A program made the translations under genes and the position numbers. Positions 28,118-46,150 of a DNA stretch of 46,150 bases are shown here, one piece after another (the first letter of the stretch is position 1; each line of letters opens with the position of its first letter). Origin of the DNA: a virus (taxonomy: Duplodnaviria; Heunggongvirae; Uroviricota; Caudoviricetes); the IMG/VR virus record IMGVR_UViG_2695420763_000017, positions 1 to 46,150 of that record. One strand, 5' to 3'. The notes below the pieces were generated by a model. That model was not told the origin of the DNA. It saw only the letters and a program-made list of their open reading frames with translations, and ran no database searches.

Positions 28118-29671
28118 ATGGGTATTGAAAGTGAATTGATAGAATTCCTTGAGCGCAGCGTCAAAGATGGTGCGAATAAGGCTAGGGATATTGAAATTGT
28201 AAAATTCTACTATGGTCTAAATGACTCGCCTTGGCCCACATTAGATGAAACTGCAAGCCGATTTGGTGTTGGTACCAGAGAAAGAATTAGGCAGTTACTA
28301 AATTTCAAATTCCGAAATAATGTCAGCAAAAACTCTATTCCATCGCTAGGCAAAGTTATTAAAGTTTTGCAGTCCAGAGAATATTGGTTGCTCTCAGAGT
28401 TTGAAGAAGAAACTTATAATGCGGGGCTGGTCGAGAAGGAAAGCCACTTAAAGGGAATATTTAATTTAATTGAGGATGTCAACCTTGATTGTGGGTTCGA
28501 TTTTTACACTCCGGAGTTAAAGCGAGCCACGAGAAACTCGATTGTAACTAGTAAGAATATATTCTTGATCAGGAATTCTGCTATCAAGAACGTTGAAAAG
28601 TTGCTCAAAAAAGCAAAAATTCTCCCGGGACGCTGCGGTATTGCAAATTTAAATTATCTAAAAGAAGAGATGGGTCAGTACTATTCGCTCGTTTCATTGT
28701 TAATTGCAAATGCGCCTACGTCTTGGGTTAGAGTGATTGACGATAATTACTGGTATGTTTTTGAGAATAGAGATAACACCATTATCAACTACAGCGAAAA
28801 GGTTTTTGGTGTTTTTGAAAACTGTGATCCATCTAGATTGGCAGAGACATATAGAAATGCCCTTAATGGAAGGAGTAATAAGTACCCGTATCCACCAGCA
28901 GAAGTTATCGATGACTATTTAAGAAGTTCTATCTATATGATTAATACGCATTCTGGACTAAAATTCATCGGTGAAAAAAACAAGCTTAATGAGATCGAAA
29001 AAGATTTAATATCTTTTTTGGACTCTTCCGGAAGCGTCTCATTTTCAACGCTTTATAAATATTTGTTGCAAAAAGGTTATGGGAAGCCGCATATATTAAA
29101 AACTACGAATTTTTCACCATTAGTATATGTAGATAAGACCAAAGGTAGAAAACATTATATGTATAGCTTAGTTGGTCATCGAATTTCTGCACATAATAAC
29201 ACCTCAGAGATGGATAAATATGAAATTTATCTTCGTAGATTAAGAGCTCTTCTCGATGTTGGAACGGATGAGACAAGAGAGCAGAAAGCTAGAAAAGAGC
29301 AGCATATTTTACAAGAGTGGCTTTTTAAGGATAAAACGCATGAGACCTGCGCTATCTGCGGAAAAGAGTTCAGCGTAAAAACGTTAGTAACGGCACATAA
29401 AAAGCCGAGATCAGACTGCAATGATGCAGAACGCTTAGATCCATATATTGTAATGCCAGTGTGTTTGATGGGGTGCGATTATCTTTACGAAAATATGTAT
29501 ATCTATATTGACGGTACTGAAATTAAACGTGGTCTGACGTTATCGAACGCAAGGAGTGAATCAAGAGTCATTGATGACCTTGTTGGGCGAAAAGTTGAAC
29601 CAAAATGGCTTTTAGGAAATCAGTCTTATTTTCGTTCGCCTAACAAAGAATTGCAGCGGATAAGTCGCTGA
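28118..29671 (+). CDS. HTH (sigma-70 region-4-like) plus C-terminal HNH-like nuclease protein, unknown function
   Basis: AAGGAG RBS; N-terminal LDETASRFGVGTRERIRQLL; C-terminal CAICGKEF...TAHKKPRSDCNDAERLD...PVCLMGCD (about residues 410-455); AT-rich. Confidence 0.75.
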   Translation: MGIESELIEFLERSVKDGANKARDIEIVKFYYGLNDSPWPTLDETASRFGVGTRERIRQLLNFKFRNNVSKNSIPSLGKVIKVLQSREYWLLSEFEEETYNAGLVEKESHLKGIFNLIEDVNLDCGFDFYTPELKRATRNSIVTSKNIFLIRNSAIKNVEKLLKKAKILPGRCGIANLNYLKEEMGQYYSLVSLLIANAPTSWVRVIDDNYWYVFENRDNTIINYSEKVFGVFENCDPSRLAETYRNALNGRSNKYPYPPAEVIDDYLRSSIYMINTHSGLKFIGEKNKLNEIEKDLISFLDSSGSVSFSTLYKYLLQKGYGKPHILKTTNFSPLVYVDKTKGRKHYMYSLVGHRISAHNNTSEMDKYEIYLRRLRALLDVGTDETREQKARKEQHILQEWLFKDKTHETCAICGKEFSVKTLVTAHKKPRSDCNDAERLDPYIVMPVCLMGCDYLYENMYIYIDGTEIKRGLTLSNARSESRVIDDLVGRKVEPKWLLGNQSYFRSPNKELQRISR

Positions 29672-29758
29672 AGACGGTGTTATGTTGAGACTGCTAACTT
29701 CCTGTTTTTGTTGGTGTTGTCCTAACACTGTCTAATCATGATTGGTGGGCTGGCGGGA

Positions 29759-29940
29759 GTTGAAACCGCAGACACGTCGTATGCAAGAACGTGCTGCGGT
29801 TGGCTGGTCAGCTTCTGATAGTGAGAATATTGAATGATTTCAAGCTGTTATCGATTTTACGTATTTTTTGCATGAAAAGATTAGCACCTCATCCCACCGC
29901 TCCTCCATGATTTTACACCACTGTCTCTAGAGCTCTGTGT
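29759..29940 (+). repeat. leader element copy B (paralogous to 27705-27890)
   Basis: Colinear similarity to copy A including inverted repeat GCAGACACGT-N12-ACGTGCTGC. Confidence 0.55.
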
Positions 29941-30060
29941 GCCAGAAGCGGAAGTTCATACCTCTAAGTGGATATTTTGTTAAAATATGCCATCAAAATC
30001 CTTGCTACCTCATGGTTGACAGTGATAAAAGTTGCACAAATTACTGAGAGAGAAATTACA

Positions 30061-30498
30061 ATGAGTGGAGATACCTCTGAGTTTCCTAATAAACTTCCCA
30101 GAAAGCCAATTGGTTGGCGTGAAGAATATAGTGATTTTACAGGTAGTATTATATTCTATATGATATTCCCGTTGCTTCCATTACTTTTTGAGTCAATTAA
30201 CACAGGAACTCACCCTACAATACAATCATTAACAATTACTGCATCAATATACTCTTTTTCCATCGGTGTATCTTCTCGAGATAAAGCTATTTTTTGCTTA
30301 GGGATTTTTTGTGGTTTCATTCTCGCTTATCTTTACGGTAAAGTTAGTGAGCCAAAAGTTATTATATATACCTGGTACTATGTAGTTACGGTGATACTAC
30401 TGGCTGTAATATTTATATTTCATCTTCTCGAACGATTTAATAAACACGTGGTAGAATGTGAGCCTGTTTTCTCCTTTAAGTTTACGAGAGGTATGTAA
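30061..30498 (+). CDS. small polytopic membrane protein (about 4 TM)
   Basis: GAGAGAG RBS then ATG 30061 (ORF track extends to 29968); hydrophobic helices throughout. Confidence 0.55.
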   Translation: MSGDTSEFPNKLPRKPIGWREEYSDFTGSIIFYMIFPLLPLLFESINTGTHPTIQSLTITASIYSFSIGVSSRDKAIFCLGIFCGFILAYLYGKVSEPKVIIYTWYYVVTVILLAVIFIFHLLERFNKHVVECEPVFSFKFTRGM

Positions 30499-30965
30499 TG
30501 GAGGATATTATATTTATGTATGCTGGGTTGATAGTGTCTTCTTTAGCGGCAATTGTAGGCTTAGCTACATCTATCATGCATACTCGTAAAAAAGTTAAAG
30601 CTAATGAAGAGCTTGCAACTGAAATGGCAAAGAGCTTTAGTGAGCTTGAATCTATCAATAAAAGCATAGGGGATTTGGAAGCGACAATTAAAAGGATAGA
30701 TGAAGATGAATTAAAGTTAAGAATAGCAATTGAATCTTTAAAGGAAATGATTTCTGATGAAAAAAAAGAATCTAGGGATATGTTGAAAACCATCGTTAAT
30801 GATGAGGTGTTCATTAAAGTTCTTCTCGAAAGCTATAAAAAACTGGATACCCAGTCAAAGAAGGAGATTTATTTGACTTTTTCCAAGTCGACAGATAGAG
30901 GCCTTTATCGATATATAAAAAGAATAGCTTCATCAGTACTCGATAACTTAATGGTTAAAATATAA
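30498..30965 (+). CDS. membrane-anchored coiled-coil protein
   Basis: N-terminal TM helix (AGLIVSSLAAIVGLATSIM) then charged heptad-like region; start overlaps upstream stop (ATGTAATGG). Confidence 0.6.
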   Translation: MEDIIFMYAGLIVSSLAAIVGLATSIMHTRKKVKANEELATEMAKSFSELESINKSIGDLEATIKRIDEDELKLRIAIESLKEMISDEKKESRDMLKTIVNDEVFIKVLLESYKKLDTQSKKEIYLTFSKSTDRGLYRYIKRIASSVLDNLMVKI

Positions 30966-31520
30966 ATGCGTGCGCGCGAGATACAATTTCTCGCGCATTG
31001 TGTAACCGGCGACAAAACCCTGTTATCATTATAGCGACCCGTTTAGATGGGCTATTTGTGCCCCAACAGCTTCTGGGTATAGATTTCCTCGGCCCTGTAT
31101 AGATACTTTGCTAAAGAGTATTTTAATGGGATTTTGCTTACGTACCATTCTTCTAACGAATGTCTGCCTTATCCTGTGAGCTGCCTTCGCTCAGCATTGG
31201 CCTGTTTCTCGTTGATTTATATACTGCGACACTAACATAGGCGGATATGTCCGCTCCTCGCTCATAACAGACATTCACTACAGTTATGGCAGAAAGGTAT
31301 GCATGCTGGGTGGGGAAAGTATGAAGGAAAAGAAAACTGCTGCGCTGTTTGTCGTCACGTTTATCTTCATTGGCTATGCAAGTCATAATACAAGGTGGGA
31401 CAAAACTGAGACACATAAGGCCTCACAATGGCTTGCAAGGCTTTACATGTTTTGATGTGGTGGGACGTGTGAGCGCAGTGTTGATGGGGTAATGCTTTGA
31501 ATTAGAAGCGGATTCTTATA

Positions 31521-31566
31521 ATTCGTAATGCGAAGGTCGTAGGTTCGACTCCTATTATCGGCGCCA
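31521..31566 (+). other. att core: 46-nt copy of the 3' half of tRNA-Thr(CGU) (thrW-like), not an intact tRNA
   Basis: ATTCGTAATGCGAAGGTCGTAGGTTCGACTCCTATTATCGGCGCCA matches anticodon loop (CGT), variable loop, T-arm and acceptor 3' strand of enterobacterial tRNA-Thr from memory; no 5' half or D-arm upstream. Confidence 0.75.
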
Positions 31567-31732
31567 TTCTAATGTCTCCCCAAGTCTACTCAAGTATTTA
31601 AAAACCTCTTATAATCCGCATGTTAGCGCCCCTTTTAGTCTTTTGACGTCTACTTAAGTACTCCAAAATCTACAGTCAATTGGGGGTACTTTTGGGGGTA
31701 TTTGCTGTTCGGTTTAGTGGAGGTACCCCCAA

Positions 31733-32947
31733 GTGAAACTCAATGCCCGTCAAATAGACACTGCCAAGCCAAAAGAGAAGGCTTACAAGCTGGCTGATGG
31801 TGGTGGTCTGTATCTCTTGGTAAAACCTAGTGGAGGAAAATATTGGCGCTTCAAGTATCGTGTAGCTGGTAAAGAGAAGCTGTTAGCACTAGGTGTGTAT
31901 CCTGAAGTTACCTTGGCTGATGCTCGTGCAAAACGTGAAGAAGCTAAAAGGGGTATCGCTGGGGGTATCGATCCGATGGAAGCGAAACGAGAGGAAAAGA
32001 TTGCCCGGGAAACGCAGTTAAACAACACCTTCAAAGATATTGCCCTTGAGTGGCACAGCAGCAAATTAAAAAAATGGTCTGCTGGTTATGCTTCAGACAT
32101 CCTCGAAGCCTTCAACAAAGATGTGTTCCCTTACATTGGCAAAAAACCAATCGCCGAAATCAAACTACTTGAACTGCTGAATGTGCTGCGGCGCATCGAG
32201 GGGCGCGGTGCTACCGAAAAAGCCAAAAAAGTGAGGCAGCGATGTGGGGAAGTTTTCCGCTATGCAATTGTCACTGGACGTGCTGAGTATAACCCTGCAC
32301 CGGATCTCACCAGCGCGATGCAAGGTCATGAATCTAATCATTATCCTTTCCTCACAGCCAAAGAATTACCTGATTTTTTCAAGGCATTGTCCAGTTACTC
32401 AGGAAGTGCATTGGTTGTTATGGCGGCTCGTTTACTGATTATCACCGGTTTGCGGACTGGCGAACTGCGCGGTGCATTATGGGATGAAATCGATCTCAAC
32501 AAGGCTATCTGGGAGATACCTGCTTCACGGATGAAAATGCGTCGCCCTCATGTAGTGCCTTTGTCTGAGCAGGCTCTTTCGCTTATTGGGCAGATTAAAG
32601 AACTAACTGGCAATTATCCGCTTATGTTTCCCGGCCGTAATGATCCAAGGAAAACAATGAGCGAGGCTAGCATAAACCAAGTATTTAAACGCATCGGCTA
32701 TAACGGAAAGGTTACTGGTCATGGCTTCCGGCACACTATGAGCACCATTTTGCATGAGCAGGGCTATAACACCGCGTGGATAGAGACACAGCTTGCGCAC
32801 GTCGATAAAAACTCAATTCGTGGCACATACAACCATGCGCAATATCTGGATGGGCGGCGGGAAATGCTTCAGTGGTACGCTGATTATATGGATTCGCTCG
32901 AGCATGGCGGAAATGTGGTGCATGGTGAGTTCGGAAAATGCGGGTGA
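31733..32947 (+). CDS. int: tyrosine integrase, P4 family
   Basis: GTG 31733 with GGAGG RBS; N-terminal arm-binding motif GGLYLLVKPSGGKYWRFKYR; catalytic region with HGFRHT and terminal tyrosine region; immediately downstream of the att core. Confidence 0.95.
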   Translation: MKLNARQIDTAKPKEKAYKLADGGGLYLLVKPSGGKYWRFKYRVAGKEKLLALGVYPEVTLADARAKREEAKRGIAGGIDPMEAKREEKIARETQLNNTFKDIALEWHSSKLKKWSAGYASDILEAFNKDVFPYIGKKPIAEIKLLELLNVLRRIEGRGATEKAKKVRQRCGEVFRYAIVTGRAEYNPAPDLTSAMQGHESNHYPFLTAKELPDFFKALSSYSGSALVVMAARLLIITGLRTGELRGALWDEIDLNKAIWEIPASRMKMRRPHVVPLSEQALSLIGQIKELTGNYPLMFPGRNDPRKTMSEASINQVFKRIGYNGKVTGHGFRHTMSTILHEQGYNTAWIETQLAHVDKNSIRGTYNHAQYLDGRREMLQWYADYMDSLEHGGNVVHGEFGKCG

Positions 32948-33075
32948 CTGGTTGAGTATACAGTAGTAGACTTTGAGCGACGAAAGAAAAGGCTGTGTCT
33001 AGGGTCGCTCCCGAAAATCCGTACACCTCGACGGACTGGTACAGCCACTACAGTAGAGGACGCTGAGGTGTGCGT

Positions 33076-33873
33076 ATGATTGATATTCATGCCGAATTAA
33101 ACGAATACAAAAAAGATTTTATTTCTTTACGTGAATTTCTTGAGGTCGTGCTTAAGGTCGCTGGTGATGATTATGATGTTTCAGATGTCATAACTTGGAT
33201 ACTCAGGAGAATAAGCGGAGAACATATCCGCCTGTACACAGTAAATGAATTTAAGCTGTTGGAATCTTTTTGTAACCCGTATCGGGATGAATTTGATAAT
33301 GATGTTCTTTATAGAAATCTGAATGCGGTTCGGAAACGTGGTTGTTTACCTGGTGAGAGGGATGAAAATGGTTTTCTGGTGTCCGGTTATTGGGAAGATC
33401 CCGAATTTGAGAACATTGGATTTATAAGGGGTGAAATTTTCGCAATTTTTCCCGATGTCCTTGACGCGTTAACGAAGCTGGAAGGCGCTAACTCTTCTGA
33501 AAATGACGAGGCACAAGGACGCGATATTGAAAAGAAAGAGTTGCGTACAGAGGATGATTTATTATCCCAAATCGCAATGCTGGAAAAAGAAAACGCAGAG
33601 TTAAGGGCAAGGATAGAGCAGTTAGAGCAAGAGCGCCCGATACACTTATATAAATACTGGGATAAAGACCCATTAGCTAAGGCTATTGAGATTAGAAACA
33701 GAGAGTGGGCCAATTACGATCCAGAAAATGATTTTGCCACCAGGGGAAATCAAGAAGCGATAACCAGGGAGCTTAAGCAGTGGGGGGCAAGTAATGCACT
33801 TGCAACGCTCATAGAGAGGACTGCCTGCCCTATTAACCGAGACAACAGCCAAAAGAACGCAAAGCCGGATTAA
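33076..33873 (+). CDS. hypothetical acidic coiled-coil protein (cargo next to int)
   Basis: GAGG RBS then ATG 33076; central EKENAELRARIEQLEQE coiled coil; unrecognised. Confidence 0.6.
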   Translation: MIDIHAELNEYKKDFISLREFLEVVLKVAGDDYDVSDVITWILRRISGEHIRLYTVNEFKLLESFCNPYRDEFDNDVLYRNLNAVRKRGCLPGERDENGFLVSGYWEDPEFENIGFIRGEIFAIFPDVLDALTKLEGANSSENDEAQGRDIEKKELRTEDDLLSQIAMLEKENAELRARIEQLEQERPIHLYKYWDKDPLAKAIEIRNREWANYDPENDFATRGNQEAITRELKQWGASNALATLIERTACPINRDNSQKNAKPD

Positions 33874-33888
33874 CGCACCATACCGCAT

Positions 33889-34034
33889 ACCCTGAGGGTG
33901 ATTTACTGTTACCCTGAGGGTATTTTTTTATCTTCCCCGTCAATTTTACCATCACCCTTAGGGTAGATTTCCTCCCGATTACCATCACCCTTAGGGTAGA
34001 TTTCCTTCCGGTAACCATTAGGCCTGAGGGTATG
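33889..34034. promoter_or_regulatory. array of five palindromic sites ACCCT(G/T)AGGGT (putative operator)
   Basis: Sites at 33889-33899, 33911-33921, 33955-33965, 33988-33998 and a variant near 34023; two lie in a 26-bp direct repeat ACCATCACCCTTAGGGTAGATTTCCT. Confidence 0.5.
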
Positions 34035-34100
34035 AAAATATTCGTTATTTCTGTGCCATGATTACCTCGTCAAATTGAGTAGACGTTATGAGGTAAATAT

Positions 34101-34298
34101 ATGTCAAATACGCTTATTCGTTTAACAGAAGTTCAGCGTAGAACTGGATATAGCAAGGCATGGATTTATCGCCTTATGGGGCAAGGTAAATTTCCTGCAT
34201 CAGTTAAAATTGGCTCGCGAGCTATTGCTTTCGTTGAGAGTGAAATTGACGAGTGGATTAATCAGCGTATTGCGGAATCACGCGGAACAGCTACCTGA
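34101..34298 (+). CDS. alpA: AlpA-family transcriptional regulator / excisionase-like protein
   Basis: GAGG RBS; LIRLTEVQRRTGYSKAWIYRLMGQGKFPASVKIGSRAIAFVESEIDEWI matches the AlpA HTH family. Confidence 0.85.
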   Translation: MSNTLIRLTEVQRRTGYSKAWIYRLMGQGKFPASVKIGSRAIAFVESEIDEWINQRIAESRGTAT

Positions 34299-34375
34299 TT
34301 AAATGGCTACGGGGCTATTGCCCCCAGCTATCCACCAGCAAATAAAAGTAACTTAATTCGATAGCAGGAGTTTTT

Positions 34376-35176
34376 ATGAAATTTCCAAAAACGCCCGTAC
34401 AGGGGCGGGGCTTCGTTCGGCCTGAAAACCAGAATCTGCAAAATTTCGGCGAAATTATCCCGATTATTTCCGGCGTTATTGGCGGGAGTGAAACCACTAT
34501 TGTTAGCGCCAGAGCGTTACATAAGGCGTTAGGTGTAGGGCGCGTTTTCCGTTCGTGGATCAAGGGGCGCATTGAAGAATATGGGTTCACGGAAGGCGTG
34601 GATTATGAGGTTGTTGAATATTTGAGCCGACCCGATCCGGTGAGCGCAAAATCTCGCCAGCAAACCGCTCTTGAGTACATCATCACAGTGAACATGGCGA
34701 AAGAACTGGCGATGGTCGAACGTACCGAACAGGGCCGCGCCGTTCGCCAGTACTTTATCAAATGCGAGGAGGAGCTACACAAGGTTGCGCCTGTTCGTTC
34801 CGCAGCGTTACGCCGGGAACTGAAAGCCCGTATCACAGTTGCCAGCTACTTTAAGCCAATGTGTGCCGCGCTGGAGGCGTACCGGGCTGAACTGGGTAAA
34901 AACACACTCCAGCACCACTACACCACGGAAGCGAACATGCTGGCGCGTATCGTGCTGGGTGGCATGACTGCAAAACAGTGGGCACTGGCGAACGGCATTA
35001 CAGGCGAACCACGCGACCACATGAGTACGTTGCAGCTTGAGCACCTTTCTTACCTTGAGCAGAGCAATATCACGCTGATTGAGTTAGGCCAGGACTACCA
35101 CCAGCGGAAGGCTGAATTAATTCGTCTTTCGCAGCGTTGGTTAGCCCGTCGCATGGAGGAAAACAGCCATGTGTAA
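34376..35176 (+). CDS. phage antirepressor-like / regulatory protein
   Basis: AGGAG RBS; 266 aa; N-terminal domain resembles antirepressor/Rha-type regulators (inference from memory). Confidence 0.55.
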   Translation: MKFPKTPVQGRGFVRPENQNLQNFGEIIPIISGVIGGSETTIVSARALHKALGVGRVFRSWIKGRIEEYGFTEGVDYEVVEYLSRPDPVSAKSRQQTALEYIITVNMAKELAMVERTEQGRAVRQYFIKCEEELHKVAPVRSAALRRELKARITVASYFKPMCAALEAYRAELGKNTLQHHYTTEANMLARIVLGGMTAKQWALANGITGEPRDHMSTLQLEHLSYLEQSNITLIELGQDYHQRKAELIRLSQRWLARRMEENSHV

Positions 35177-35635
35177 CGCTCTGACCGTTACAAAAAGAGA
35201 AAGCGCCCCGTTGCCGGAGCGCCTTTGTGAACGAATAGCCTACTGCGCCATATTGCTTACTGTCTACGAGGCAGATTATAGCGTTGTGGTCGCACAGAGT
35301 GAAGGCGCTGATCACCGTTACTACAGCACGCCAGAAATGCAGAATATTTTGCTGCAAAATGTCGTTGGTCACACTGTCCGGAAAGCAAAAAATTTTGCTG
35401 GTGGCGCGACTGATGCGATTTTGTCAGGTCGCCAGGTGCTGATCAATCTGATGTCTGATTTCGTTCTGGATAAAACAAAGGCGACCGCAGAGGGCCGCCA
35501 GTGGGAAAGCTACATACCTGAACGCATCGCCAACAATGCCAGATTTACGGCTGGTGGGCAATGTGTCAGCTTTGCACCAATGACTCTATGTTTAACTGAG
35601 GGTCATTATGGTGAATATGCTGGCTTGCTGGTGGG

Positions 35636-35836
35636 CTATTCCTGCTCTTTAACATTGCCATGCCGCGATGTTTTCCAGGTATGCGACCCCATTTTTGTGC
35701 GCCTGTACTCTTTAAGGAATTTCTCAAGGACAAACGCACAGGGCGCGAATCTGTCTGACTCATGCTCGTACGCTATCTTTCTGCGCTGTCTTTTCCGTGC
35801 CGGTGATGGTGTATTGGTTGATTCTTTGTTGGTCAT
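35636..35836 (-). CDS. small hypothetical basic protein
   Basis: Minus-strand ORF downstream of the RHH gene; ends in the same ...KEQE-stop and shared 17-bp DNA repeat; could be non-coding. Confidence 0.3.
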   Translation of the reverse strand: MTNKESTNTPSPARKRQRRKIAYEHESDRFAPCAFVLEKFLKEYRRTKMGSHTWKTSRHGNVKEQE

Positions 35837-35893
35837 GGCGCTGCCCTGTAAAATAATGCACCGTAGTTCCTCACACCACGGCACCTATAGTGG

Positions 35894-36199
35894 TTATTCC
35901 TGCTCTTTAGCTTTGCGCCGCTGGAGTTCTTCACGCGCGACGGTGACGAGTTGCCCGATTTCCTCGGCAGCTTTGACTCCGATTTTTTCCACCTGCGCTA
36001 GGGCATCGAGCGAAGAAACCAGGGGATTTTCTCCGCTTCCTTCTGCCTGGCGGCGGGCGATTTCACCGCGAACGGCTGTAATCACGAAAGCGGCTATTGT
36101 TTCCCCTTCCGTTTTCGAATTTTCCATTTCCTCGATTACATCATGGGGGAAGCGGATATTTTTCATTTGCGATCTGCTGTTGATGTTTCCTGTTGCCAT
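35894..36199 (-). CDS. Arc/MetJ-type ribbon-helix-helix repressor-like protein
   Basis: KNIRFPHDVIEEMENSKTEGETIAAFVITAVRGEIARR fits a beta-strand plus two-helix RHH fold; transcribed leftward from the divergent region (alternative start 36166). Confidence 0.55.
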   Translation of the reverse strand: MATGNINSRSQMKNIRFPHDVIEEMENSKTEGETIAAFVITAVRGEIARRQAEGSGENPLVSSLDALAQVEKIGVKAAEEIGQLVTVAREELQRRKAKEQE

Positions 36200-36261
36200 C
36201 AGAATGTCCGGTTATTTTGAGGTGTGTACACATTACACCAAAAGGTGTGTTGATAAAACAC

Positions 36262-36291
36262 TTGACACTGTAGCACACTTAAATTTAATTT
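36262..36291 (+). promoter_or_regulatory. putative rightward early promoter within divergent operator region
   Basis: TTGACA (36262-36267), 17-18 nt spacer, TTAATT/TAATTT; flanked by GTGTACAC-type palindromes. Confidence 0.3.
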
Positions 36292-36389
36292 GTATACACA
36301 CCAATTGTTGTGGTGTATATACAGCAACGCCCCGCAGTGGTGGCACACATGCAGGGCGTCTAACCAAACCGTTAAACGAGGTAACGATT

Positions 36390-36755
36390 ATGGCTGGAAC
36401 ACAGCATACCCAAACTCACCCTAAATTTATATACACCTTCCTGGCGGTGCACCGTGATTGCATTGCTGACGGTAAAAACACTGTACACGTAGCCGCCGAT
36501 ACGCTGGTTGATGCCTGCGAGATGCTCAATGACATGGGCTATATCTCGGCAACATGGAAAGGGCGCGAAGAAAACACGCTGTTTATTCAGAAATGCGAAA
36601 ACAATTTTATCTGGCGTTTTATCGCCCTGAGTACGGCACAACCGCGCGTGATTCACATCGAGGCCACCAGCGAACAGGAAGCACGCCAGCAATCTCCTGA
36701 TGGCTGCGTGATGGTATTCGCTGCCCGTATTCGCCAGGAGGTGGAGCATGTGTAA
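36390..36755 (+). CDS. hypothetical protein, first gene of rightward operon
   Basis: GAGG RBS 8 nt upstream of ATG 36390; 121 aa; in-frame distal part of the long 35169-36755 open frame. Confidence 0.6.
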   Translation: MAGTQHTQTHPKFIYTFLAVHRDCIADGKNTVHVAADTLVDACEMLNDMGYISATWKGREENTLFIQKCENNFIWRFIALSTAQPRVIHIEATSEQEARQQSPDGCVMVFAARIRQEVEHV

Positions 36756-45370: not shown

Positions 45371-46150
45371 ATGAAGATGCCCTCAATCAAAGTTATTTCA
45401 CTTATATTAATAGCTATTGTATGGTATTTTTACTTTTCTCATTTCAATCATTGGGATAGCCCGTTAGATATCTTTAATGCTAGCAAATGGATGGGTTTTT
45501 CCAATGATAAAGGTGATTGGGGCACTTTCGGGGATTTTGTAGGAGGTGTGCTTAATCCTATCTTGACCTTCATTACAATTGTTATGCTCATTAATTCCTT
45601 GAAACTTCAACGAGAAGCAAACGAGCAACTAATTAAAGACGAAAGAAGACAAGAGAAAGACGTTCTTCTAAAACGGTTTGAAGACGGTTTTTATAACCTT
45701 ATCTCTTCAGAAAGAGAGGAGTTTAGTTGTTTTACTATTAACATTAACGGAAAAGAATACCGCTCATCTGCTGCTGTTAGTGAATTGGAAGAGGCAATAT
45801 GGGCTTTTATTGAGAAACAAATAGATGAAAAAGGAGCTTGCGAAATTGAGGATGTTAAAAATTACATAAATAAAATTGATGAGGATTCATCTATGGCAAT
45901 ATTTTCCATGGTGCGATGTGTATATGTTGTTTTTAAGGTTGTTAAGGATAAATGCCCTGAAGAACATCAAGATTACTACTTAGATATTTTTATGAATATG
46001 TTACCAGTTAAACTGGTAAATTTAGTTGCTATTGTGTCTGTGTATATGGACTGGAAAAACGTAAAATATATTATTGATGGTGGAAAAGGATTTTCGGATA
46101 ATGAAGCAGTTAAAGAATATATTAATACTTGGAAGGAGTTTCATGAATAA
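45371..46150 (+). CDS. hypothetical membrane protein (259 aa; two N-terminal TM helices plus charged domain)
   Basis: ATG immediately follows upstream TAA; TM1 about residues 6-22, TM2 about 53-76; stop TAA at window end. Confidence 0.7.
   Translation: MKMPSIKVISLILIAIVWYFYFSHFNHWDSPLDIFNASKWMGFSNDKGDWGTFGDFVGGVLNPILTFITIVMLINSLKLQREANEQLIKDERRQEKDVLLKRFEDGFYNLISSEREEFSCFTININGKEYRSSAAVSELEEAIWAFIEKQIDEKGACEIEDVKNYINKIDEDSSMAIFSMVRCVYVVFKVVKDKCPEEHQDYYLDIFMNMLPVKLVNLVAIVSVYMDWKNVKYIIDGGKGFSDNEAVKEYINTWKEFHE

What the first reader, a model, noticed from the sequence alone, without database searches (positions are those of the whole stretch)
33076..34034. Cargo gene beside int followed by a five-site palindromic operator array
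Seen: an unrecognised acidic coiled-coil protein directly after int, then five copies of the near-palindrome ACCCT(G/T)AGGGT within about 145 bp, two embedded in a 26-bp direct repeat, ending about 65 bp before alpA. Inference: a multi-site operator controlling alpA (and thereby excision/replication), bound by a dimeric regulator, possibly AlpA itself or the RHH repressor; the cargo gene sits in the int-proximal slot where satellites often carry accessory genes.
Basis: partly seen in the sequence, partly recalled or inferred. Interest (0 to 1): 0.55.

Follow-up and report, generated by a model that had tools for sequence, protein, structure and literature searches.

The report
Conserved operator array before satellite alpA
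A phased cluster of short DNA palindromes sits just upstream of alpA, the master-switch gene of an E. coli phage satellite. It is real and conserved from E. coli to Herbaspirillum, and it always travels with the conserved tail domain of the neighbouring 'cargo' protein, so that protein is a likelier binder than AlpA or the RHH protein.

Summary
There are four perfect ACCCT(G/T)AGGGT sites (33889, 33911, 33954, 33987) and one degenerate proximal site (34021-34031). They lie between a 265-aa acidic leucine-zipper protein and alpA, inside a PICI-type satellite next to a partial tRNA-Thr.

The array is conserved. In 37 distinct related intergenic regions the sites are kept while the spacers diverge. 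The central base is free. Site spacings fall only at about 22, 33, 43 and 54 bp. The proximal element ends 24 nt before an invariant extended -10 (TGnnATnAT, 34054-34062). It is therefore very probably a protein-binding operator array of the alpA promoter.

The proposed binders do not fit. Array type does not follow the AlpA recognition helix or the RHH allele.

Array type does follow the C-terminal domain (CTD) of the upstream 'cargo' protein. This is a rare, unannotated roughly 70-aa domain, always C-terminal, behind a leucine zipper and a swappable N-terminus. In Herbaspirillum the CTD gene and the same array occur together with no alpA nearby.

My best reading (about 0.5) is that the 'cargo' is the array's cognate dimeric regulator. 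DNA binding by it is not shown: the fold searches were uninformative and the protein is acidic.

The orphan Rfam motif int-alpA RNA is this gene's 5' leader.

The parts
31542..31566 (+). 3' end of tRNA-Thr (partial copy). It marks the junction between the upstream prophage and the satellite, i.e. the satellite's left attachment site.
   Evidence: ARAGORN finds no complete tRNA in the window. The sequence GGTTCGACTCCTATTATCGGCGCCA occurs once. Related elements sit directly after an annotated tRNA-Thr.
31733..32947 (+). Tyrosine integrase of the satellite.
   Evidence: Pfam Arm-DNA-bind_3, Phage_int_M and Phage_integrase.
32992..33059 (+). Rfam RF02996 'int-alpA RNA' motif, here the 5' leader of the 'cargo' gene.
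   Evidence: 45.5 bits against a gathering score of 35.8. The same motif lies directly upstream of the homologous gene in 10 of 20 related loci scanned, including Aggregatibacter and beta-proteobacterial loci.
33076..33552 (+). 'Cargo' protein, N-terminal part: a conserved first 20 or so residues followed by a variable, swappable middle.
   Evidence: Alignment A1. Mosaic comparison with L017: homology stops at 33087 and resumes weakly at 33646.
33553..33636 (+). Leucine-zipper coiled coil (residues about 160-187), presumably the dimerisation element.
   Evidence: The heptad pattern is read from the sequence. The AF2 model has one long helix with pLDDT 90-94. The only PDB sequence matches are bZIP, bHLH-zip and other coiled coils.
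33637..33873 (+). Conserved C-terminal domain (CTD): PI.L..Y..DPL.LAIEIRNREWANYDP...TRGNQ.AI..EL...G.S...A..IE..ACPI.R.
   Evidence: Invariant columns in A1 and A2. Only 51 representative clusters among 1.84 billion proteins carry it, essentially always at the C-terminus (one apparent fusion aside). AF2 gives a three-helix bundle. A CTD-encoding gene lies directly upstream of the array in every evaluable locus.
33889..33899 (.). Site 1, ACCCTGAGGGT; centre about -175 from the inferred start.
33911..33921 (.). Site 2, ACCCTGAGGGT; centre about -153. It is followed by T7 (33923-33929), which makes it terminator-like in this element only.
   Evidence: The T-run is not conserved in A4.
33954..33964 (.). 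Site 3, ACCCTTAGGGT; centre about -110.
33987..33997 (.). Site 4, ACCCTTAGGGT; centre about -77.
33946..34011 (+). 33-bp tandem duplication that carries sites 3 and 4; copy number varies between strains.
34012..34032 (.). Proximal composite element TAACCATTAGGCCTGAGGGTA. It is a long palindrome with the same half-sites 8 bp apart (perfect in L016: TACCCTGAGGCCTCAGGGTA).
   Evidence: It ends 24 nt before the -10 hexamer.
34054..34062 (+). Inferred extended -10 of the alpA promoter (TGcCATGAT). The inferred start is about 34069.
   Evidence: TGnnATnAT is invariant in 12 diverged intergenic regions (A4). The consensus scan finds no -35/-10 promoter in 32900-34450. The start site is inferred, not measured.
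34062..34096 (+). Leader hairpin that pairs an anti-SD (UUACCUCGU) with the alpA Shine-Dalgarno (AUGAGGUAA).
   Evidence: Equivalent hairpins with other sequences occur in L016, L004, L006, L014 and L005 (z -2.3 to -4.5). In the window alone z is only -0.9.
34101..34298 (+). alpA, the satellite's master activator gene.
   Evidence: Pfam Phage_AlpA, E 2.4e-19. Its role is taken from PMC6092414 and PMC11773190.

Best explanation
The palindromes are a cooperative, helically phased operator array of the alpA promoter of a Gram-negative PICI-type satellite.

In this model it dimerises through its leucine zipper. It places its two conserved C-terminal three-helix domains on the ACCCT and AGGGT half-sites. 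Several dimers occupy one face of the DNA from about -175 to about -43.

The swappable N-terminal and middle part would be the input (sensor) domain. The array plus this protein would then gate transcription of alpA, and with it excision and replication of the satellite.

A hairpin that hides the alpA ribosome-binding site in read-through transcripts would make alpA depend on initiation at this one promoter.

What is shown: the sites, their conservation, their phasing, the conserved -10, and the exclusive genomic coupling of the array to the CTD.

What is inferred: that the CTD binds DNA, the transcription start, and the sensor role. The sign of regulation (repressor or activator) is open. The position wholly upstream of a weak promoter that lacks a -35 fits activation at least as well as repression.
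For: 1. Real and non-random: 8 strand-hits against 0.86 expected, all within 110 bp.

2. Footprint-like conservation. In 12 diverged intergenic regions the sites are conserved and the spacers are not (A4). Window and L017 share no detectable homology across the distal array (33775-33978), yet both keep the sites.

3. Symmetric recognition. In 47 distinct sites the positions ACCCT and AGGGT are each held in at least 43 of 47 sites (the inner CCCT/AGGG in at least 45), and the central base is free (A9 C12 G12 T14).

4. Phasing. The 73 spacings fall only at 21-25, 31-34, 42-44 and 55 bp. The resultant vector length is 0.90 at a period of 10.5-10.8 bp.

5. Promoter geometry. An invariant TGnnATnAT lies 24-25 nt after the proximal AGGGTA in the E. 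coli/Salmonella-type alignment, and Photorhabdus has a -10-like hexamer at the same spacing.

6. Coupling to the CTD.
- An unbiased scan of IMG/VR for two palindromes found 48 loci. Of these, 35 are this module and 13 are unrelated repeats. Every evaluable module has the CTD gene ending directly before the array.
- The same holds in Salmonella, Yersinia, Xenorhabdus and a beta-proteobacterial satellite; Photorhabdus and Aggregatibacter keep the CTD gene next to alpA with half-sites or degenerate sites.
- In Herbaspirillum frisingense (L057) and its relative L071, the CTD gene plus a four-site array occur with no alpA nearby. The sites are kept while the spacers have diverged.

7. Specificity tracks the upstream gene's C-terminus. 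A homologous but diverged CTD (L004/L012; hhalign probability 89.5% for L012) goes with TAGTRCCCACC arrays. A non-homologous C-terminus (L006, L102, L103, L106) goes with ACCGCAATTGCGG arrays.

8. No other neighbour tracks the array: not integrase or att type, the AntA/B gene, RHH or AlpA.

9. The architecture of zipper plus small helical domain suits a dimer reading a short palindrome.
Against: DNA binding by the CTD is not shown.
- The whole protein is acidic (pI 4.7) and the CTD is only neutral (pI 7.1).

The coupling could be partly physical linkage. The array starts about 15 bp after the stop codon. Recombination between satellites seems to use the conserved int/leader and alpA as flanks: the window and L006 break at 33049 and at 34191, inside alpA. 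The array would therefore be co-inherited with the gene's 3' end whatever its function.

PICIs studied experimentally (EcCICFT073, EcCIMP1) have no such gene between int and alpA, yet their alpA promoter is induced by helper phage and by AlpA itself. A cis-encoded reader is therefore not a general requirement.

Half-sites also occur as direct repeats 6-7 bp apart (L016, L007) and in the opposite relative orientation (L010). This is unusual for a rigid dimer.
Confidence: 0.5

Rival explanations
1. The array is the landing pad for a helper-phage-encoded DNA-binding protein that switches on the satellite. The model is phage P2 Cox, which binds arrays of cox boxes to activate the P4 late promoter PLL upstream of vis, the alpA homologue. 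Different array types would then tune satellites to different helpers. The CTD gene would merely be linked.
For: Helper phages, not SOS itself, induce the alpA promoter of EcCICFT073 and EcCIMP1, and the phage inducer is unidentified (PMC6092414, PMC11773190). The array lies wholly upstream (-43 to -175) of a weak promoter with no -35, in phase. That is the geometry of an activator. The P2 Cox / P4 PLL precedent is recalled from the literature and was not checked here.
Against: The same motif is kept from E. coli to Herbaspirillum together with the CTD gene, across hosts whose phages differ. No ACCCTKAGGGT site (up to 1 mismatch) occurs in the 31 kb of adjacent prophage in the window. This rival gives no reason why the CTD should be retained, even as a 64-84 aa remnant ORF, while the rest of the gene is swapped.
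Confidence: 0.2
2. The sites are AlpA's own binding sites, used for the positive autoregulation known in PICIs.
For: AlpA activates its own promoter in EcCICFT073 and probably in EcCIMP1, so AlpA must act somewhere in this region. In the window/L006 mosaic, the first 30 or so codons of alpA (the helix-turn-helix) are swapped together with the array. EcCIMP1, which has no CTD gene, has one AGGGTAgctcTACCCT about 165 bp upstream of an alpA with the window-type helix.
Against: The recognition helix does not track array type. RRTGYSKAW(I/L)YRLM occurs with ACCCTnAGGGT (window), GTACCCACC (L004) and ACCGCAATTGCGG (L103). RRTGYGRAWIY(K/R)LI occurs with ACCGCAATTGCGG (L006, L102) and TAGTRCCCACC (L012). 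L073's AlpA (GLSRSAIYSLEK) sits behind the same TACCCTnAGGGTA motif. L057 and L071 keep the array without a nearby alpA. Proteins of this excisionase-like family usually bind as monomers to direct repeats (general knowledge), whereas these sites are tight dyads.
Confidence: 0.1
3. The palindromes act at the RNA or transcription level only. They would be small hairpins in read-through transcripts from int and the cargo gene that terminate or insulate transcription, with no dedicated protein.
For: Sites 1 and 2 score as terminator-like, and site 2 is followed by T7. The array sits at the 3' end of a gene, and in L057 it lies between convergent genes.
Against: The T-run is not conserved. The stem would be 4-5 bp with a 1-3 nt loop. 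The loop-closing T and A are invariant, while the stem shows essentially no compensatory variation. Half-sites also occur as direct repeats that cannot pair. Helical phasing has no meaning for RNA hairpins.
Confidence: 0.05
4. The ribbon-helix-helix (YlcI/YnfO-type) protein at 35894-36199 (minus strand) binds the array.
For: RHH proteins bind as dimers to short repeats, and one is encoded about 2 kb downstream.
Against: L001 (array identical to the window) and L006 (a different array) encode the identical RHH WP_000201462.1. The window has a different RHH allele with the same array as L001. Several array-bearing loci show no such gene nearby.
Confidence: 0.02

Closest known systems
P4 late promoter PLL with its Vis, Cox and Delta/Ogr control (satellite phage P4)
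   Same: It is a satellite promoter placed directly upstream of the alpA-family gene (vis) that opens the lytic and replication operon. It is controlled through several protein-binding repeats upstream of the promoter. Related satellites here also carry P4-type C4/isrK immunity RNAs downstream.
   Different: The P4 sites are cox boxes and TGT-N12-ACA activator sites, read by helper or P4 proteins (recalled, not tested here). Here the sites are 11-bp dyads, and the only co-inherited candidate reader is a new protein encoded in cis. The window itself has no C4/isrK hit.
SaPI/PICI master repressor Stl and its operators (Gram-positive PICIs)
   Same: A satellite-encoded regulator next to int, with a DNA-binding part and a variable part that would sense the helper phage. 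It gates the first lytic operon. This is the role the present gene would fill.
   Different: Stl is transcribed divergently and has an N-terminal helix-turn-helix. Gram-negative PICIs are said to lack a known repressor and to use the activator AlpA (PMC6092414). There is no sequence or fold relationship. Repression is not shown here.
Cooperative multi-operator arrays of phage repressors and activators (lambda OR/OL, OmpR/PhoB-type phased sites)
   Same: Dyad-symmetric sites with a free centre, several copies in helical register, and the proximal copy abutting the -35 region.
   Different: Much shorter sites (5+1+5). Two spacing classes of the same half-sites (N1 and N8). Variable copy number through tandem duplication.
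Rfam RF02996 int-alpA RNA motif
   Same: Present in the window at 32992-33059, above the gathering score, between int and alpA as the family name says.
   Different: It is not the array. It lies about 0.9 kb upstream, as the leader of the intervening protein gene. The palindromes match no Rfam family (best hit RAGATH-25, 16 bits against 49 needed).
IS10 transposase 'fold-back inhibition'
   Same: A hairpin buries the ribosome-binding site only in transcripts that start upstream of the gene's own promoter. This protects a dangerous gene from read-through.
   Different: Inferred here from the position of the conserved -10 relative to the 5' arm. No start-site data. The IS10 precedent is recalled from the literature.

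Membership tests
Gram-negative PICI-type phage satellite (context of the finding) | Integrase at the left end next to a tRNA attachment site, with genes co-directional. | tested here: met
   int at 31733-32947 follows a partial tRNA-Thr 3' end. Nearly all ORFs run on the + strand.
Gram-negative PICI-type phage satellite (context of the finding) | An alpA-family regulator after int and a primase/replicase (D5_N, DUF5906) further on, with ori repeats downstream of it. | tested here: met
   Phage_AlpA at E 2e-19. Primase at 38041-39846 with D5_N, DUF5906 and Pox_D5. Repeats GGTAGACNGTTGGTAGACAGTT at 40095-40211.
Gram-negative PICI-type phage satellite (context of the finding) | Induction and transfer by a helper phage. 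| not testable with these tools
   A prophage with Mu-like tail genes lies in tandem upstream, but helper dependence needs experiment.
Protein-binding operator array of a promoter | Repeated, symmetric sites conserved against diverged spacers. | tested here: met
   A4 alignment and the 47-site matrix.
Protein-binding operator array of a promoter | Fixed geometry relative to promoter elements, and helical phasing. | tested here: met
   The proximal half-site lies 24-25 nt before an invariant TGnnATnAT. Spacings cluster at multiples of about 10.8 bp.
Protein-binding operator array of a promoter | Demonstrated binding of a protein and an effect on transcription. | not testable with these tools
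   Needs EMSA or footprinting and reporter assays.
AlpA autoregulatory sites | Site sequence co-varies with the AlpA DNA-reading residues. | tested here: not met
   The same helix occurs with three array types, and the same array with two helices.
RHH (YlcI/YnfO) operator | Site sequence co-varies with the RHH allele. | tested here: not met
   The identical RHH occurs with different arrays, and different RHH alleles with the identical array.
Integrase arm-type or excision sites | Within a few hundred bp of the att core, and co-varying with integrase/att type. | tested here: not met
   The array is 2.3 kb from the att core. The same array occurs in thrW-inserted and tRNA-Gly-inserted elements with clearly different int-upstream repeats, and those repeats do track int.
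Intrinsic terminator | A stable GC-rich hairpin followed by a conserved U-run. | tested here: not met
   Only site 2 in this element has a T7 tail, and the tail is not conserved.
Replication-origin iterons | Direct repeats next to, or downstream of, the initiator gene. | tested here: not met
   The sites are dyads 4 kb upstream of the primase. A separate repeat pair sits just after the primase gene.
Known DNA-binding domain families (for the CTD) | A significant sequence or fold match to a characterised DNA-binding domain. | tested here: inconclusive
Rfam RF02996 int-alpA RNA | A covariance-model score above the gathering threshold. | tested here: met
   45.5 bits against 35.8 at 32992-33059. 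This applies to the leader of the upstream gene, not to the array.

The most novel reading that the evidence does not exclude
The int-proximal 'cargo' is the missing satellite-encoded sensor-regulator of a large subfamily of Gram-negative PICIs. It would use a new DNA-binding domain (the CTD) on a leucine zipper to read the ACCCTnAGGGT array at the alpA promoter. Exchangeable N-terminal modules would detect particular helper phages. The orphan int-alpA RNA motif would be its regulatory leader. It would be the functional counterpart of Stl, and would explain how these satellites couple helper detection to alpA induction.
Probability: 0.3. Interest if true: 0.8.

Novelty: new variant of a known kind. 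Interest (0 to 1): 0.6.

Why it matters
How Gram-negative PICIs sense their helper phage and fire alpA is an open question. The inducer is unidentified, and no satellite-encoded repressor is known (PMC6092414).

This locus offers a concrete, testable control module at exactly that switch. It consists of a conserved operator array, a conserved weak promoter, and a leader hairpin that insulates alpA from read-through. It also includes an uncharacterised protein family with swappable input domains whose conserved tail never separates from the array.

The finding also gives the orphan Rfam motif int-alpA RNA a genetic context, as the leader of that protein's gene.

If the protein binds the array, its C-terminal domain is a new DNA-binding domain. 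The N-terminal swaps would then be a natural library of helper-phage sensors. About 146 of 5,426 complete E. coli genomes carry this version of the module.

Tried and rejected
- Family libraries (Pfam, PHROGs, NCBIfam, PADLOC) gave nothing for six cargo variants.
- A tblastn search of the CTD against 50,697 deposited phage genomes gave no match. A blastn search of the region found only one alpA-like stretch.
- The genome-contig scan with the cargo alignment returned only 4 loci, because the collection holds one genome per species.
- The IMG/VR scan for the type-2 array pattern (TAGTRCCCAC x2) returned 24 unrelated loci and no satellites. The type-3 pattern returned 4 satellites and 6 unrelated loci.
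- The 13 non-satellite loci with two ACCCTNAGGGT copies are coding repeats or other phages' tandem repeats. They have no CTD-like neighbour.
- EcCIMP1 was checked for a CTD remnant and has none.
- Pseudomonas AlpA, an antiterminator with the binding element GGGACG, is a larger Q-like protein and not a useful model.
- Rejected readings: integrase arm sites, iterons, terminators, a coding region on the minus strand (the 61-aa ORF at 33833-34018 is an artefact of the repeats, since indels and spacers are not codon-like in A4), and REP-like elements.
- Literature searches found no description of the array or of the protein family.
Full report
CONTEXT. The window is E. coli chromosome. Positions 1 to about 31000 are the late region of a prophage with Mu-like baseplate and tail genes. 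A partial tRNA-Thr 3' end follows (31542-31566), and ARAGORN finds no complete tRNA. Then comes a PICI-type satellite with these genes: integrase (31733-32947), a 265-aa unannotated protein (33076-33873), alpA (34101-34298), an AntA/B protein, a ribbon-helix-helix protein on the minus strand, small icd-like and DUF4222-like ORFs, a D5-type primase (38041-39846), ProQ/FinO and others. The cargo-array-alpA stretch is present at 80% coverage or more in 146 of 5,426 complete E. coli genomes, always chromosomal.

THE OBSERVATION. It is correct.
- Four perfect ACCCT(G/T)AGGGT sites lie at 33889, 33911, 33954 and 33987, and a degenerate GGCCTGAGGGT lies at 34021. Shuffles of the window give 0.86 strand-hits against 8 observed, all within 110 bp.
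- Sites 3 and 4 lie in a 33-bp tandem duplication (33946-34011). Its copy number differs between strains: one copy in L002 and L003, and three copies of its site in L046.
- The protein is acidic (pI 4.7) and has a four-heptad leucine zipper at about residues 160-186.

IS THE ARRAY FUNCTIONAL? I collected related loci in three ways: by similarity in E. coli genomes, through homologues of the upstream protein, and by an unbiased pattern scan of IMG/VR for two palindromes 10-40 bp apart. The scan gave 48 loci. Thirty-five are this same module and 13 are unrelated repeats.

Thirty-seven distinct intergenic sequences lie between a CTD-family gene and alpA; about 30 of them carry an ACCCTnAGGGT-type array of 3-6 sites. 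In those, spacings between neighbouring sites fall only at 21-25, 31-34, 42-44 and 52-55 bp. For sites with at most one mismatch the resultant vector is 0.90 at a period of 10.5-10.8 bp. In 47 distinct sites the ten half-site positions are each held in at least 43 of 47 sites and the central base is free.

An alignment of 12 diverged intergenic regions shows the sites conserved and the spacers not (A4). Window and L017 have no detectable homology across the distal array, yet both keep the sites. The motif persists in Salmonella, Yersinia and Xenorhabdus, and Photorhabdus keeps half-sites and degenerate copies. It appears with altered inner bases in a low-GC metagenome (TACTATnATAGTA). In Aggregatibacter-like loci the half-sites face the other way. 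It is unchanged in beta-proteobacteria.

PROMOTER GEOMETRY. A4 contains an invariant TGnnATnAT (window 34054-34062, TGcCATGAT), which is an extended -10. The consensus scan finds no -35/-10 promoter anywhere in 32900-34450, so this is a weak promoter without a -35.

The proximal element ends 24 nt before the hexamer, and Photorhabdus has a -10-like hexamer 25 nt after its proximal site. That element is really a long palindrome with the same half-sites 8 bp apart. It is perfect in L016 (TACCCTGAGGCCTCAGGGTA) and has a degenerate left half in the window (34012-34032).

With an inferred start near 34069, the site centres lie at about -43/-46, -77, -110, -153 and -175.

Directly after the -10 begins the 5' arm of a hairpin that pairs with the alpA Shine-Dalgarno sequence. 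Equivalent hairpins with different sequences occur in other alpA leaders (UCUCCCGU/ACGGGAGA in L006, CUCCGU/ACGGAG in L014), with z -2.3 to -4.5. The window's own hairpin is not significant alone (-8.2 kcal/mol, z -0.9).

My inference is that transcripts started at PalpA lack the anti-SD arm, while read-through transcripts from int and the cargo gene carry it. alpA translation would then depend on this promoter.

WHO READS THE ARRAY? [quoted passage not shown] The inducer is unknown, and no repressor is known in Gram-negative PICIs (PMC6092414, PMC11773190). I compared array type with each neighbouring gene.
- RHH: L001 has the window's array and L006 has ACCGCAATTGCGGT, yet both encode the identical RHH WP_000201462.1. 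The window has another RHH allele.
- Integrase/att: the same array occurs in elements inserted at thrW and at a tRNA-Gly. Their int-upstream repeats differ (TGGGGGTA versus GTATAG) and track int, not the array.
- AlpA: the window-type helix RRTGYSKAW(I/L)YRLM occurs with ACCCTnAGGGT (window), GTACCCACC (L004) and ACCGCAATTGCGG (L103). The helix RRTGYGRAWIY(K/R)LI occurs with ACCGCAATTGCGG (L006, L102, L106) and TAGTRCCCACC (L012). A beta-proteobacterial AlpA with GLSRSAIYSLEK sits behind TACCCTnAGGGTA.
- Downstream genes vary freely.

Only one thing tracks the array: the C-terminal 70 or so residues of the upstream protein.

THE UPSTREAM PROTEIN. Its homologues share a short N-terminus, a variable middle, a zipper and a strongly conserved C-terminal domain (CTD).
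- An exhaustive phmmer search of 1.84 billion representatives finds only 51 clusters. The CTD is essentially always at the C-terminus of proteins of 67-515 aa; one apparent fusion protein (P0056) carries only its N-terminal half.
- In every evaluable locus the CTD-encoding gene ends directly before the array. In Photorhabdus cinerea only a 64-aa CTD ORF and one site remain, and in Xenorhabdus the CTD sits in a separate 84-aa ORF.
- In Herbaspirillum frisingense (L057) and a 79%-identical relative (L071/L072), the order is an XRE-type gene, the CTD protein, then a four-site array. No alpA is in the fetched flank of L071. In L057 only a distant alpA-like gene lies 2.9 kb away. The sites are kept while the spacers diverge.
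- A diverged but homologous CTD (L012; hhalign probability 89.5%, E 2e-6) accompanies the TAGTRCCCACC arrays. A non-homologous C-terminus accompanies the ACCGCAATTGCGG arrays.
- The gene is preceded by the Rfam motif int-alpA RNA (RF02996; window 32992-33059, 45.5 bits). That motif also precedes the homologous gene in 10 of 20 related loci scanned.

The coupling is confounded by adjacency. Recombination between satellites appears to use the int/leader region and alpA as flanks: the window and L006 break at 33049 and at 34191. The array would therefore be inherited with the gene's 3' end in any case.

EcCICFT073 and EcCIMP1 have no such gene, yet they are helper-inducible.

The strongest arguments beyond linkage are three. 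The CTD is retained while the rest of the gene is swapped. The Herbaspirillum arrangement lacks alpA. And the identical motif persists across gamma- and beta-proteobacteria together with only this protein.

VERDICT. That the palindromes form a protein-binding operator array of PalpA I hold at about 0.8. A helper-phage activator, on the model of P2 Cox at the P4 PLL promoter (recalled, not checked), gets about 0.2. AlpA itself gets about 0.1. The RNA-only and RHH readings are unlikely. Whether the array represses or activates is open; its position entirely upstream of a weak promoter fits activation at least as well.

No paper in the searchable library describes the array or the protein family.

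Noticed in passing
window 32992-33059 (+): The Rfam int-alpA RNA motif (RF02996, 45.5 bits) lies between int and the cargo gene and ends at that gene's ribosome-binding region. The same placement was found in 10 of 20 related loci scanned, including type-3 cargo (L006), Aggregatibacter and beta-proteobacteria. It is absent at gathering score from L004, L012, L013, L057 and L071. The motif's function is unknown; here it looks like a 5' leader.
   Followed up: partly
window 34062-34096 (+): A hairpin sequesters the alpA Shine-Dalgarno, and its 5' arm starts right at the conserved -10. Other alpA leaders have equivalent hairpins with different sequences. This suggests insulation of alpA translation from read-through transcription.
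   Followed up: partly
window 40095-40211: Two copies of a 38-nt repeat containing GGTAGAC(C/A)GTTGGTAGACAGTT lie just downstream of the primase gene. This is probably the satellite's replication origin.
   Followed up: no
window 31585-31735: Repeats upstream of int: GTCTACT(N)AAGT-like copies, plus TGGGGGTAC, TGGGGGTAT and an inverted GGTACCCCCA overlapping the int start. They co-vary with integrase/att type (tRNA-Gly-site elements have GTATAG repeats instead), so they are likely arm-type or int-regulatory sites.
   Followed up: partly
L004:2803-3017, L012:2775-3021, L006:2845-2958, L011:2858-3013, L005:2843-3009: Other PICIs carry different element-specific repeats in the same slot before alpA: TAGTRCCCACC, ACCGCAATTGCGGT, CCCAAATTGGG and TTCC..GGAA. 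Each goes with a different C-terminus of the upstream gene. The L006 half-site TATCACCGCAA resembles the lambda OR3 half-site, but with a different spacing.
   Followed up: partly
window 31000-46150 versus L004, L005, L010, L012, L013, L017, L073, L074: P4-type immunity RNAs (Rfam C4, isrK) are found in many related satellites. None is found in the window's satellite, even at E up to 0.1.
   Followed up: no
window 35169-36755 (+) and 35634-35916: A 528-aa ORF spans a region that PGAP annotates in relatives as several small genes on both strands (RHH, icd-like), so it is probably spurious. A 25-nt repeat GGCTATTCCTGCTCTTTAACATTGC occurs at 35634 and 35892, each just after the end of a minus-strand small gene as annotated in relatives.
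   Followed up: no
window 28118-30965: Between the prophage tail-fibre region and the satellite lie a 517-aa protein and two small membrane-like ORFs of low GC. These are possibly prophage accessory or defence genes. The equivalent region in strain F9792 differs in content.
   Followed up: no
L070 (IMGVR_UViG_3300037313_000197): An unrelated viral contig carries 21 ACCCTNAGGGT palindromes scattered over 8 kb. No CTD or alpA gene is present.
   Followed up: no
L013:2553-2979 (EcCIMP1): The experimentally studied PICI EcCIMP1 has no gene and no CTD remnant between int and alpA. It does have one AGGGTAgctcTACCCT dyad about 165 bp upstream of an alpA with the window-type recognition helix.
   Followed up: partly
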